Shown here: piece by piece, positions 34,583 to 52,839 of the stretch
Position numbering within the stretch: position 1 is the stretch's first letter
Layout of the letters: the number at the start of each line of letters is the position of its first letter
DNA from: Eledone cirrhosa
Lineage: Eukaryota
NCBI GenBank assembly: GCA_964016885.1
Contig: OZ024742.1
Location: 230,888,001-230,952,000 of the forward strand
Length of the DNA stretch: 64,000 nucleotides
Direction: 5' to 3'
Notes under the pieces: model-generated
What the model saw: the letters and a program-made list of their open reading frames with translations, nothing else
What the model was told of the DNA's origin: nothing
Databases searched by the model: none
Made by a program: the position numbers and the translations under genes

Positions 34583-35314
34583 ATATATATATATATATAT
34601 ATGATCCCTTTTGACTTCAATATATATATATATATTGTCCCCTACCCCTTTCTCTCAACTCCTCTTTCCTTTTATTTCCTTTTTGTACTTTTCCCTGCTT
34701 CCCAGCCATGTTTCTCTTTTTTCTCCTTTCCTATCTGTAAATATTTAACCTTAAATAGGAAATTTCGAACCAATAAAATTATTTTCTTCATTAAAAAATT
34801 CATTTCTGTTGGTTAAAAATGACGCTTTTTTTTTTGGGGGGGGGGGGGGGGGGGGGTGTATGTAAATATATGGATTGACTTATCGATTTAAATTATCCGC
34901 AGGGCTTATAAAGTATACATTTATCGATAAATACTTCATAAACAATCCCATGAATATTCATATATATATATATATATATATATATATATATATATATATA
35001 TATATATATATATATATATGTATGTATGTATGTATGTATGTATGTATATATATATATATATATATATATATATATATGTATGTATGTATATATATATATA
35101 TATATATATATATATATATATATGTATGTATGTATGTATATATATATATATATATATAGAGAGAGAGATTTTGAGTTTATGTTGGTTGTATACCAACACC
35201 TCAGTATGCAGGCTGGAGCACTCGACGAAGTGCGCAGGTTGGTTTGGTTACTCCGGAGTAGTGTAAAATAAAGTTAAATAAAAGTCAAATGATTAAAATT
35301 TAGCTTCGTTTATT

Positions 35315-35369
35315 ACTGCTATATATATTTCAGTGACAGCCATCTTTGGCTGTGACCTCTTCAGGCAGT
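35315..35369 (-). ncRNA. type I minimal hammerhead motif (family C)
   Basis: Exact reverse complement of 35910-35964. Confidence 0.8.
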
Positions 35370-35909
35370 TTGAATTAGTATGGTATAGACAAGTACATAT
35401 GTTGTTTAGGTGTATGATATTGTCAATACTCTGATATGCCCAGTTCATAACAATACTTCTAAATTGTTAGCAGCAGCAAGATATAAGCTGACCACTACAA
35501 CAACAACAGTACCAAAATAATGGTGGAGGTCAAATGTACTGAACAATAGCAGGCATAAACACTACAGGGAGCCTCACCCCAGAAAGAATTCTATAGACTT
35601 CTGACTGAGGAATGCTCTCAGAACTGAACAATGGGAAGTTTGACACATTTTTTGATATTTTGTTCCTTCAACACCTTGTCCCTTCTACCATTTTATCAAT
35701 TTTTTAAGCTAACTCCAACAATGACAACACTAATAACTGACCAATGAGAGGAGAAGGGGACCTGTGACACTAAAATTCGTTTGTTTGAATTCATATGACT
35801 CCAGTTCCCCAGTGAATTAACAACCCAACAAGGAACTGGGCATATCAGAGTATTGACAATATCATACACCTAAACAACATATGTACTTGTCTATACCATA
35901 CTAATTCAA

Positions 35910-35964
35910 ACTGCCTGAAGAGGTCACAGCCAAAGATGGCTGTCACTGAAATATATATAGCAGT
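35910..35964 (+). ncRNA. type I minimal hammerhead motif (family C)
   Basis: ACTGC-CTGAAGA-GGTCACAGCCA AAGA TGGCTGTCACT-GAAA-T ATAT A-TA-GCAGT. Confidence 0.8.
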
Positions 35965-36798
35965 AATAAACGAAGCTAAATTTTAATCATTTGACTTTTA
36001 TTTAACTTTATTTTATATATATATATATATATATATATATATATATATATATATGTATGTATGTATGTATATATATATATATATATATATATATATATAT
36101 ACATATACATATATATATATCTGTGTGTTTGTTTGTGTGTGTGCGTTTGTGTGTGTGTGTGTATCACACATGCTTATATATATATATATGTGTGTCACAC
36201 ATGCTATATATATATATATATATGTGTGTCACACATGCTATATATATATATATTGGATAGACGAGTTAATATAGACCTATATTGTCTATGTGCTACAATA
36301 ATTCTTTGTCCACATTATAGATTTTAATAGCAATTTGCCTATATTTTATTGTTGTTGTTATAATATCATCATCATTATTAAACAAAAAATAAAAACAAAA
36401 TAAAAATAAAAACATATCATCATCATTGTTATTTCATGCAAAATTATTTCCTTACAGATTATGAACAAACACACACTTTGAAATCAATATTTTTTTAATG
36501 CTGAGATTCGTTTTGGAGATTTGAGAAAGCAACTTTTTTCTGCATTAGTGAACTTTAAATAGTTCTTGTTAAACAACACACATTAATGTACTACTCAGAT
36601 TATATGGGACAATGATACTACTGTAGTTTTCATCATATATAGTAGAATGTATTTATTCCACATGTGAAGGCCGCGAGACTTTGAGGTTAAGTTGTTCTGC
36701 TCACGATCGTAATGTCATGAGTTCGAATCCTGATGGCCCGTCGTCTCCATATATTTATGATATTGATGCTATAGTTAAATGTAGTAGATGGAGTGTAT

Positions 36799-36911
36799 CA
36801 GTTGGAAATGGCTAATTCAGACAGAACCCGATGGAAGAAGTGTTTTGGGGACTCTATCCCCATGACCCTCTCGGGAATAAGTGAGCGAAGAAGAAGAAGA
36901 AGGAGAAGGAG
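36799..36911 (+). mobile_element. RTE-like LINE 3' terminal fragment
   Basis: Translates as MANSDRTRWKKCFGDSIP, resembling the RTE C-terminal A.DR..W motif, followed by a (GAA)n tail. Confidence 0.5.
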
Positions 36912-49069: not shown

Positions 49070-50193
49070 TTTTACTAATAGTAATAATAGCACTGTACCA
49101 TACCTCCTAACAGCACCACACCTACTACAACCACAATTGTTAATACTACTCCCCCATCACAATATTACTACCACAACTGCTAATGTTGATCGTGATGTCT
49201 TTTTTTTACTTGTTTCGTTGTTTATTGTATTTTTGTGTTGTTTATTATTTTTCCAATATTGCTGCGGCTTTTTCGTGTTATCGCGGTTGTTCATATAAAG
49301 AAGTTATGGAAAATAATCAATATTATTATTTTTTAATGCGAAATGTTAAAATGTATGTATGTCTATATATATGTATATATATATGTGTGTGTGTGTGTGT
49401 GTGTGTGTGTGTGTGTGTGTGTGTGTGTGTGTGTGTGTGTGTGTGTGTGTGTGTGTGTGTGTGTGTCCGTATACGTTACGTACGTATGGATATTGTGTCT
49501 GTGCGTGAAGATATTTTTTAACGTGAGGAAAGACTGTGCACTGAACCAATCCCACTCTCTGAGCGACAGTAGCTATAACCCGAAAAGAAGAAAAGTTCAA
49601 CATCATCGGTAACTACTGAGCCGCAGGTTTTATATCGGAGTTATCCCAGTTTCCTGAGTTGCCTTCTCCTAGAAGAATGCCCTGACAAAGTCTAGGGGTC
49701 CTTCACTCCCAGTGGTTTAACCGCGCGGTACATGTGTATATACATATTTACACACTTTCGGGTGGCCGTTGACTCTTATGAGTTCTTCCACCCTTTGTCA
49801 GGTTTTGTTTTTTGTCCTGCAGGGTGCCCAAAATCACCCTCCTCACCAAGTAAACTTGGTGGGGTTGCTGGTTTAGTTGCCGACGACCTGACCATGCGAC
49901 ATACATACATAATGTTCTGCATTGAACTTGTAGTTGCATCCTGGCAACAAAAGTTGAATTATTTAAGGCAGTCCCTACACACTCAATGATGTGAGAAATG
50001 AACTAATTTCCTTCCTCAGAGTGAACTTATTAAGATTTTCGTGAGAAACACCATGAATAATACGCTGCTATAGTCTATAACAACTGCAACAACAACGTAT
50101 CCCAAAGTGAAAAAAATTCTTACCCGGAAAGTAACGGTTTCTGATGATCTCTGTTGTACAGTTACAAGTTGCGAGCCGTAGCTTCATCTAACA

Positions 50194-50376
50194 TTGGCAG
50201 TATCGGTAGAGAGTCGGACGCCGTGCTTTGCAGCACAGTTACGTCCCTTTACAGACTGAATTCAAATCCCGCCGAGGTTAACCTTGCCTTTCATCCTTAC
50301 GGGGTCGATAAAATAAAGTACCAGTAATACACTGGGATAATTGCTGGCCTTGTGCCAAAAGTAGAAACAATTATTA
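50194..50376 (+). mobile_element. family-1 SINE
   Basis: A and B boxes and family core. Confidence 0.88.
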
Positions 50377-52400
50377 CCTAATTAGTATTGGATATATCGT
50401 CATCAGCAGGTATCCGTTCTATTTATATACATATGCATATATATATATATATATATATATATGTTGTGTGTGTGTGTGTGTGTACATGTGTGTGTTGTAT
50501 GTATATTTATGTTGTATTGTGCGATTCTTGCTCTGCAAGAACGTTCGCCGTCTTAGGACCGAACAGCCATTTCATTTCGTTAGTCGACATCCTTACCCTT
50601 ACATAATCTACATTGCACAGCAACAAGCTGGAACGAAAGTCTATTTCATAGACTTCTTTAAGTATCATGTTTATTTAATCCTCTTATGGCTCTTTTGATT
50701 TTTTTTGATTTTTTTACATTATCCTTTATCCTTTGCTGTTGTGCTTTCTTTAGCTTTGGAATTAAATTTATCTTTCCAATATATATTATAGTTATCTTTC
50801 GGGTAGCTTAAAGAAAACTCGTAGTTTCGGATAATGTTTAATTTAGCTATCTAGAGGTTTCCTAGCCATGAGCAGTAGGTTATTGTCCGATTGTTCAATT
50901 TTTCTTCTTCATTTTTATTTTTATTTGTAATTTTCATATAAATTCCCGCTTTTGTTTAGTATACATGCTTATATACTTTCGGCTGCTCATCTTAAAATAA
51001 ATCATAAAACGGTACAAGTTGCTATTTTTCTCAAAATAGCGGATGTAATTTTATCGAAGTAAAAGAATTTATAGTTTGGAAAGATAATTATAGGTGAGCG
51101 GTGAATTCACAGAATCGTTATAGCGTAGGATAAAATGTCTTGTGGTAGTTGTCCCAGCTTCCTGTGCTCCGAATTCAAATCGCACTCTGGCGTTGATAAA
51201 ACAAAGTGCTTGTCTATAACTGGTTGATTCTTCTATCTCTCTTTCCCTTTTTTCTCTAAAACTAATCCTCCACCCGGTTAAACATCACCACTTGACTTTT
51301 GTATGTAAACTATGACAGACTAGAAAAGATATCTAATGGCCGTCAATTAAGAAACAAAAACAAGAGAGAGACAGAGCTGTGATGCGAAATTACATCAAGA
51401 ATTAAATTTGATTCTATTATGGCATTTACCACAAATGCCACGAATTCAGGAATTAATCAAAATATCAAAACAACATATATTACTGCCCTTAAATAGGTTG
51501 AACGTTCACTTCATTGTTAATTATTGTACGATGTACGTAAACAGTTATATTTTGGATTGTATAAATACTAAAATAACCTTTATAATTATATACTTGTTCA
51601 TTTTCTTCCCAGATTGACATTAATGGTTGCATATAAATATTTACTTTGAATCAAGCTTCGTTCAAAATCAATTATTTTTAAATGTTTTCGTGGATATAAT
51701 GGCAATAATTAAATATATTTTGTGCTACTATTACAATCGAAATACTAAGAGCGTGATGACGTATATTCGTGAATAAAGTATTGGTTGGAAACAAACTTAT
51801 CGATCAAGTCCGCATCTTGAGTGATATTAAATTGCATGGTTTGCAATATACGGGACCGGAAAACAGTTTATAAACTTTTAAAAGATGTTATGCGTCCCCC
51901 AAAATATCAACGTACATATGCACGTTTATGTAAAAGTCTATAATAATGCAGAGATTGGTAAACGAATTGACAACGTAAGGTGCAGGTCGATTGACCAAAG
52001 GAATATATATATATATATATATATAGAGAGAGAGAGAGAGAGAGAGAGAGAGAGAGAGAGAGAGCGAGAGAGAGAGAAAGAGAGAGAGAGAGGGAGAGAG
52101 AGAGAGAGAGAGAGAGAGAGAGGGAGAGAGAGAGAAAGAGAGATAATAAATGTGAAGACTAAAATCCAAAGAGGGCTCGATAAGGATAAATATATATCAA
52201 ATATATAAGAACCCTAGAGCAAATATTTACTGAAATAACAGATTAAAGTTTAAGCAAAGAATCGCTGCTTTCACTCTTAACGATTCTTTGCTTAAACTTT
52301 AATCTGTTATTTTAATATATATATATATATATATATATATATATATATATATATAGTGACGAAACTTGAGTCAATTGCATGAACTCATAATCCTTTATTT

Positions 52401-52456
52401 ACTGCTATATATATTTCGATGATAGCCATTGAATGGCTATGATCTCATCAGGCAGT
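52401..52456 (-). ncRNA. type I minimal hammerhead motif (family C relative) in TA-flanked element 52355-52573
   Basis: ACTGC-CTGATGA-GATCATAGCCA TTCAA TGGCTATCATC-GAAA-T ATAT A-TA-GCAGT. Confidence 0.85.
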
Positions 52457-52839
52457 TAGTCAGTTCTTAGATATGCCAGCTCTGTGTTTATAGTGTTGAT
52501 AGTATCAGAGCCTTGAGACATATATACATTTATTGTACTGCCTCTCTGTTCTGTCCCTGTTCAATTTTTCATTATATATATATATATATATATATATATA
52601 TATATATATATATATATATATATATATATATATATATATATATATATATATATATATATATATATATTTGAAAAAGGAGAAGAATGACTTCACTTGTAGT
52701 TCTAAACAATTTGATTTAATTCTATATTATAATTTTACAATTTAGTTTTGTAGATCTAGTAAGTTCTTTGTAGCTATCCATGGTTGGTAAGCCACGGTGG
52801 GTTTTGAACTAAGAATATTTAGAACTGCCACAATTACCA

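What the first reader, a model, noticed from the sequence alone, without database searches (positions are those of the whole stretch)
35165..52573. Family C: covariation between distant copies supports selection on ribozyme structure
Seen: helix II is GGTCACAGCCA/TGGCTGTCACT at 35910 and GATCATAGCCA/TGGCTATCATC at 52401. There are two compensatory changes (G-C to A-U, C-G to U-A), a G-U to G-C change, a conserved C-C mismatch, a different loop and CUGAAGA versus CUGAUGA. Helix III is itself made of TA repeats (GAAATATATATA). Inference: the RNA structure was under selection. The TA-like helix III might also pair with the target microsatellite, which is speculative.
Basis: partly seen in the sequence, partly recalled or inferred. 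Interest (0 to 1): 0.72.

Follow-up and report, generated by a model that had tools for sequence, protein, structure and literature searches.

The report
Hammerhead ribozyme of Penelope-like retrotransposon
These are hammerhead-ribozyme motifs at the ends of a known kind of jumping gene (Penelope-like, Hydra type) that fills this animal's TA repeats; their base pairing is kept between lineages while the letters change, and the TA-like stem is likely there so that two ribozymes can pair with each other, not with the insertion site.

Summary
The motifs at 35910, its inverted twin at 35369 and 52401 are type I hammerheads in the terminal repeat of Penelope-like retrotransposons carrying the Hydra-clade protein motifs. 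The genome has 10,668 matches to this family's pattern and 56,578 to a sister group's.

The two copies belong to different subfamilies. Selection on the fold is supported at lineage level: the ribozyme is 80% identical while its flanks are at shuffle level, and in a tree-aware test on 77 rows helix II pairs 3 and 6 covary (E about 0.003). Single copies decay neutrally. A DNA-level hairpin-repair bias may contribute.

Pairing of helix III with the target is not supported: only 19 copies run into TA at the cut, sister lineages with a UGCGCA palindrome also end in (TA)n, and the conserved property is self-complementarity, the published sign of dimeric cleavage. Cleavage itself is untested.

Not found in my searches: an unpaired C at position 10.4 kept across these lineages. 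Verdict: new member of a known kind.

The parts
35167..36015 (+). 5'-truncated Hydra-type Penelope-like insertion (subfamily C1): inverted terminal repeat with tail, then 3' end; no ORF left
   Evidence: Matches the 3' end of RT+GIY-YIG elements at 99-100%
35167..35263 (-). [quoted passage not shown]
   Evidence: one end with and one without the tail in most inverted insertions shown
35264..35446 (-). inverted arm, 183 bp, identical to 35833-36015
35315..35369 (-). hammerhead twin, identical to the + copy; predicted cut 3' of position 35320
35452..36015 (+). 3' untranslated end (pseudo-LTR) of subfamily C1
35910..35964 (+). type I hammerhead motif: 5-bp helix I, core, 10-bp helix II with C-C mismatch at 10.4/11.4, 8-nt palindromic helix III; predicted cut 3' of A35959
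35951..35958 (+). self-complementary helix III strand (A15.1 to U16.1), predicted to pair with a second ribozyme
34960..35158 (.). (TA)n-rich target array, left flank
36014..36120 (.). (TA)n-rich target array, right flank
52356..52533 (-). short truncated copy of subfamily C2 (3' end only), next to (TA)n at 52315-52355
   Evidence: longer C2 copies carry an endonuclease about 70% identical to C1
52401..52456 (-). type I hammerhead motif of subfamily C2; predicted cut 3' of position 52406
34125..34178 (+). hammerhead motif of sister group D (helix III insert UAUGUA, C-A mismatch at 10.4)
10126..10193 (-). second group D hammerhead motif in the window (with flanks)
   Evidence: weak folding on its own, z 0.28

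Best explanation
The motifs are type I hammerheads in the terminal repeat of Hydra-type Penelope-like retrotransposons, their pairing is conserved between lineages, and they likely cut the tandem precursor RNA as a dimer joined through the palindromic helix III. Shown: linkage to an RT + C-terminal GIY-YIG reading frame, insertion in (TA)n, pairing kept across lineages, palindrome kept while its letters change, two same-strand ribozymes 4,125 nt apart in one tandem copy. Inferred: selection acts while a lineage is transposing and ends once a copy is inserted; two ribozymes (5' and 3' repeat, or two RNAs) form an 8-bp shared helix III and cut 3' of AUA, about 208 nt upstream of the ATG, releasing unit-length RNA, perhaps with help from the element's protein; integration starts elsewhere, at two internal sites about 54 and 153 nt downstream of the cut, with (TA)n chosen by the protein. 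The window copies are likely dead: truncated, and at 35167-36015 the two motifs face each other, so a read-through RNA would tie both up in a 183-bp duplex.
For: Protein link and Hydra motifs RWK, DKT, CxCX5C, CxxC, CxH. C1 versus C2: ribozyme 80% identical, 60 nt upstream 0.58 (shuffles mean 0.52, max 0.61), 44 nt downstream 0.52 (0.50), endonuclease DNA 72%. 7 family C haplotypes: helix II 100% paired apart from the C-C. 22 hand-picked C+D haplotypes: 98.8% of 330 cells paired, 11 of 15 pairs with two-sided change, slid registers 30-54%. Tree-aware test on helix II columns: pairs 3 and 6 E about 0.003, the top 4 of 91 column pairs are all structural. G-U, an RNA-type pair, fills 20, 12 and 10 of 77 rows at pairs 1, 2 and 5. 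Helix III inserts UAUAUA, UAUGUA, UGCGCA and rarer forms stay self-complementary. Modelled dimer -37.2 versus -31.4 kcal/mol for two open monomers; the monomer hairpin costs +4.7. Spacing 4,125 nt and 208 nt to ATG. Published: palindromic helix III and dimer cleavage in PLE hammerheads (PMC4209133); ribozyme not needed for insertion, internal initiation and protein-assisted cleavage in PAc (PMC11167929).
Against: No cleavage or expression data. Within family C alone only one pair passes, and it may rest on one or two events; the tool's pair-count measure for C alone is not above shuffles (132 of 500). Pairs 1, 2, 5, 7 fail the tree-aware test even in C+D. The mismatch-repairing C>G change is in 95 copies against 36 for the non-repairing C>A, while flanks show 8 against 15 (Fisher p 0.0007), so some pairing can arise by a DNA- or cDNA-level bias without selection. 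One abundant D lineage has A opposite C at the first pair of helix II. Published minimal PLE hammerheads cleave poorly in vitro, and PAc RNA-seq showed no ends at the cut site. The covariation test is my own script, not R-scape, and assumes the C and D motifs are homologous.
Confidence: 0.75

Rival explanations
1. The fold is kept for protein binding or RNA packaging, and self-cleavage is weak or incidental.
For: PAc ribozyme mutants still insert in vitro and no RNA ends map to the cut; minimal PLE hammerheads are slow; the unpaired C at 10.4 looks like a recognition site (paired in 1 of 77 rows).
Against: The complete core, the NUH triplet and a dimer-type palindrome are kept across lineages whose helix sequences differ widely; but my patterns required the core, so core conservation is not independently measured.
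Confidence: 0.15
2. The compensatory changes come from hairpin correction (template switching during reverse transcription or DNA replication), not from selection on RNA.
For: C>G repair of the mismatch is 2.6 times as frequent as C>A (95 versus 36) and sits in only one of two inverted twins in L206 and L208, so it arises at or after insertion.
Against: Correction would remove mismatches and wobbles, yet the 10.4 mismatch persists in 76 of 77 rows and G-U is common; it does not explain why the ribozyme is better conserved than flanks and coding DNA or why helix I, a long-range pair, also covaries.
Confidence: 0.07
3. Helix III pairs with the (TA)n target, for example the cleaved 3' end anneals to nicked DNA and primes insertion.
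For: Cleavage would leave an RNA ending in UA repeats; 19 genomic copies run from GAAA straight into at least nine TA units, and in 15 of these the downstream strand does not resume (by script and eye). Endonuclease-less PLEs use telomere-complementary repeats next to their ribozyme.
Against: 19 against 10,668 (patterns differ), and deletion to the TA flank about 50 nt away explains them; element ends cluster at 50, 54 and 153 nt from the cut; 23 of 25 UGCGCA copies have (TA)5 within 260 nt downstream, like 133 of 141 UAUAUA copies, background 428 of 1,275 windows; none of 26 published Hydra ribozyme rows has a TA-run helix III though 26 of 27 listed families insert in (TA)n; PAc primes without homology.
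Confidence: 0.03

Closest known systems
Hydra clade of Penelope-like elements (Craig et al. 2021, PMC8557442), including Hydra-1_Obim
   Same: Single RT + C-terminal GIY-YIG frame, RWK, DKT, CxCX5C linker, CxxC and CxH motifs, (TA)n insertion, 3' hammerhead with palindromic helix III, inverted 5'-truncated copies, tail at one end.
   Different: Unit 4,125 nt (published: generally under 3 kb); tail about 97 nt (published for PLEs: 30-40 bp); helix III is 8 nt and AU-only; cut triplet AUA; 10-bp helix II with an internal mismatch, which none of the 26 listed Hydra rows shows; tens of thousands of copies.
Minimal type I PLE hammerheads (Cervera and de la Pena 2014, PMC4209133)
   Same: In pseudo-LTRs, long helix II, short helix I, palindromic helix III, families full of compensatory changes, pairs of motifs on opposite strands 100-700 bp apart.
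   Different: [quoted passage not shown]
PAc (Poseidon, Anolis) hammerhead (Frangieh et al. 2024, PMC11167929)
   Same: Ribozyme in the pseudo-LTR, AT-rich targets, two discrete end points defining a tail downstream of the ribozyme.
   Different: Different clade; in PAc the ORF starts inside the ribozyme, here the ATG lies 208 nt after the cut.
Non-LTR retrozymes (PMC7229834; bioRxiv 10.64898/2026.07.22.740005)
   Same: Type I hammerheads in short repeats of animal genomes, proposed to derive from PLEs.
   Different: Retrozymes are head-to-tail non-coding arrays; these copies are dispersed, inverted or truncated ends of coding elements.

Membership tests
Type I hammerhead ribozyme | Core CUGANGA and GAAA with U16.1-H17 | tested here: met
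Type I hammerhead ribozyme | Three helices, ends in helix I | tested here: met
   Helices I and II fold and covary; helix III is stable only in the modelled dimer
Type I hammerhead ribozyme | Site-specific self-cleavage | not testable with these tools
   No assay; no raw RNA reads available
Type I hammerhead ribozyme | Match to an Rfam hammerhead model | tested here: inconclusive
   0 matches at gathering threshold; the E-value mode was not run; an Rfam match is not part of the definition
EN+ Penelope-like element | RT and C-terminal GIY-YIG in one frame | tested here: met
   One frame from RT to EN in L032; frameshifted in L046 and L049. Pfam scan gave no RT hit; atlas neighbours include RVT_1 clusters
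EN+ Penelope-like element | Pseudo-LTR, tandem and inverted structure, one-sided tail | tested here: met
Hydra clade | RWK present, DKG changed to DKT, GxKF/Y absent | tested here: met
   Motif scan of L049 against the definition
Hydra clade | CxCX5C linker; CxxC and CxH around conserved E and N; no CCHH | tested here: met
   only one Cys between the GIY-like and YIG strands (read by eye)
Hydra clade | Insertion in (TA)n and a canonical hammerhead | tested here: met
Hydra clade | Generally under 3 kb (typical, not strict) | tested here: not met
   Unit 4,125 nt in L046
Hydra clade | Placement in the clade on an RT tree | not tested
   Reference sequences were seen only as text in the supplement; no tree built
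Neptune/Nematis clades | CX2-5CxxC linker and CCHH motif | tested here: not met
   Linker is CxCX5C (compare)
Non-LTR retrozyme | Head-to-tail short non-coding repeats, each with a ribozyme | tested here: not met
   Copies are dispersed or inverted and linked to an ORF

The most novel reading that the evidence does not exclude
These lineages carry a distinct structural subtype of the PLE hammerhead: an unpaired C three pairs out on helix II that every amplified lineage sampled has kept against a mutation bias that repairs it, serving as the docking site for helix I or for the element's own protein, which switches on dimer cleavage of the 4.1-kb precursor.
Probability: 0.3. Interest if true: 0.5.

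Novelty: new member of a known kind. Interest (0 to 1): 0.3.

Why it matters
What PLE hammerheads do is still open. This genome offers more than 67,000 pattern matches in many lineages, a natural mutagenesis series that names the pairs, the palindrome and one unpaired C to test. It also separates two ideas cleanly: target choice does not depend on helix III sequence, while dimer-type self-complementarity is kept. The overall system is already described.

Tried and rejected
Rfam gathering scan: nothing. Pfam and PDB sequence searches of the protein: nothing useful. Homologue search: 1,163 hits, nearly all unnamed; the best named ones are from Argonauta hians. My first clade guess, Neptune, was rejected on motifs. 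Subfamily C2 as a discrete 178-nt SINE: most top hits start at one site, but among the ten unbiased loci re-read six extend further upstream, so I treat it as a truncation hot spot at a short TA-like match; not settled. The 867-aa frame in L032 is partly an artefact: its first 166 or so residues are the antisense of the inverted endonuclease. Sequencing runs: no RNA holder listed; laying contigs of four runs gave no start or end information, though among the differences shown only one common variant fell inside the ribozyme against dozens upstream (6 rows not shown). A protein search of the genome with the RT core was not completed. Earlier scan findings were not available. R-scape itself is not available. 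Rows dropped: 1 of 103 haplotypes (helix II deletion), then collapse to 77 unique rows; the 22 and 7 rows were hand-picked from the 214 hits, favouring recurrent haplotypes.
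Full report
Observation. The described letters are in the sequence. A type I hammerhead motif lies at 35910-35964 (+), an identical twin at 35369-35315 (-) within a 183-bp perfect inverted repeat, and a variant at 52456-52401 (-). The helix II differences are as stated, and H17 is A35959. Rfam at gathering threshold reports nothing. The window comes from a 3.0-Gb genome rich in microsatellites; the best named protein relatives are from Argonauta hians, so a cephalopod host is a reasonable inference, not a result.

What it is. The 35167-36015 segment matches many genomic places at 99-100%. 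Longer copies carry an RT followed by a C-terminal GIY-YIG domain about 1.2 kb upstream of the ribozyme. The protein has RWK, DKT, a CxCX5C linker, CxxC and CxH, the features that define the Hydra clade of Penelope-like elements in Craig et al. 2021 (section 11; supplement alignments). No tree was built. Insertions sit in (TA)n, are often inverted, and carry a tail of about 97 nt at one end only. One tandem copy has two same-strand ribozymes 4,125 nt apart, with the ATG 208 nt after the first predicted cut (L046). The two near-full-length copies I read, L046 and L049, are frameshifted. The 52401 motif belongs to a second subfamily whose endonuclease is about 70% identical. The family pattern has 10,668 exact matches, control 0. 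A scan of 153 held sequences turned up a sister group D, 56,578 matches, control 0, two of whose lineages were tied to related RT (52%) or endonuclease (37-46%) frames.

Is the fold under selection? Between subfamilies C1 and C2 the ribozyme is 80% identical while 60 nt upstream and 44 nt downstream align no better than shuffles, and endonuclease DNA is 72% identical. Seven family C haplotypes keep all 70 helix II cells paired. For 22 hand-picked C+D haplotypes 98.8% of 330 cells pair and 11 of 15 pairs change on both sides, against 30-54% paired in slid registers; part of helix I and III was fixed by my search patterns, helix II was not. I therefore ran a tree-aware test modelled on R-scape, on helix II columns only: in 77 unique rows (102 of 103 haplotypes used) pairs 3 and 6 reach E about 0.003 and the four best of 91 column pairs are all structural, while pairs 1, 2, 5 and 7 are not significant. 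In family C alone (36 rows) only pair 6 passes (E 0.008); in D alone (54 rows) only pair 3 (E 0.018). Changes seen in single or rare copies break pairs 22 times and keep them 10 times. So selection acted on transposing lineages; inserted copies decay.

A result against a pure selection reading. The C>G change that closes the C-C mismatch is in 95 copies, the non-closing C>A in 36, whereas flanks show 8 against 15 (p 0.0007). In two of six loci examined the change is in one inverted twin only. A hairpin-repair bias therefore probably exists. It cannot be the whole story, since the mismatch persists in 76 of 77 rows and G-U pairs are common. It does make the retention of the unpaired C in all sampled lineages more telling.

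Helix III. The insert varies (UAUAUA 141, UAUGUA 37, UGCGCA 25, others 11, of 214 hits) and the common forms are self-complementary. As a monomer hairpin it costs +4.7 kcal/mol; a modelled dimer is 5.8 kcal/mol below two open monomers. This is the published dimer signature (Cervera and de la Pena; Perreault et al.). Against pairing with the target: only 19 copies run from GAAA into long TA, four of which resume the element afterwards; ends cluster 50, 54 and 153 nt past the cut; 23 of 25 UGCGCA copies end by (TA)n like 133 of 141 UAUAUA copies, background 428 of 1,275; published Hydra families insert in (TA)n (26 of 27) with no TA-run helix III in 26 rows; and the PAc element primes internally without homology and without needing its ribozyme.

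Mechanism. Shown: anatomy, linkage, lineage-level pairing, palindrome, end positions. Inferred: a tandem precursor is cut by two ribozymes sharing an 8-bp helix III, giving unit-length RNA; the protein picks (TA)n and starts reverse transcription at two sites downstream of the cut, producing the tail. Cleavage, expression and protein help are untested. The window copies are likely inert.

Novelty. Hammerheads in Hydra-clade repeats, compensatory changes among families and palindromic helix III are all published. I found no description of the 10.4 mismatch, the 4.1-kb unit or this copy number in searches; figures are not visible, and unread parts could hold it. Papers seen: PMC4209133, main text parts 1-2 of 4 and supplement parts 1-2 of 3; PMC8557442, passages, section 11, supplement part 2 of 59 and search hits; PMC11167929, parts 1-2 of 4; bioRxiv 10.64898/2026.07.22.740005, part 1 of 5 (its supplements are closed); PMC7229834, PMC13282606 and PMC3088659, passages only. 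Hammerhead numbering and the role of R-scape's null are from my own knowledge. Verdict: new member of a known kind, interest 0.3.

Noticed in passing
window 31495-33384: Another Penelope-like remnant: 563-bp inverted repeat (95%) around a GIY-YIG fragment at 32533-32898 (-), 39% identical to the family C endonuclease; no canonical hammerhead found by my scans.
   Followed up: partly
window 58477-58515: A further hammerhead-like motif with a 4-nt palindromic helix III insert (TGCA) and a 4-bp helix I, not beside a TA array.
   Followed up: no
L116:2590-5662 and L100: Tandem 310-bp repeats each with an identical type I hammerhead (helix III insert CGCG), 8 on one strand and 3 on the other: a non-LTR retrozyme-like array.
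   Followed up: no
L096:1921-2859, L024, L046: Repeats about 470 bp apart with type I hammerheads (helix III insert CTAG), with a compensatory change in helix II between L096 and L024.
   Followed up: no
L090, L094, L113, L114, L062, L178: A separate dispersed family with a hammerhead-like motif whose helix II start resembles family C but is fully paired and whose helix III insert (GAAC) is not a perfect palindrome.
   Followed up: no
window 52534-52572: 39 nt between the C2 copy and the (TA)n array that other C2 copies lack; by eye it resembles the upstream part of the GAAC family.
   Followed up: no
L206, L208 and 95 genome places: Excess of the mismatch-closing C>G change in helix II, in one inverted twin only in two loci: possible hairpin-templated mutation at or after insertion.
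   Followed up: partly
L153, L155, L161, L162: An abundant group D lineage has A opposite C at the first helix II pair, normally the conserved 10.1-11.1 pair.
   Followed up: no
L052-L080: Most close relatives of the 52401 copy start at one site about 70 nt upstream of the core, directly after (TA)n: truncation hot spot or short non-autonomous form.
   Followed up: partly
window 52143-52322, 28275-28870, 40696-41095: Other short repeats with palindromic layout nested in TA arrays.
   Followed up: no
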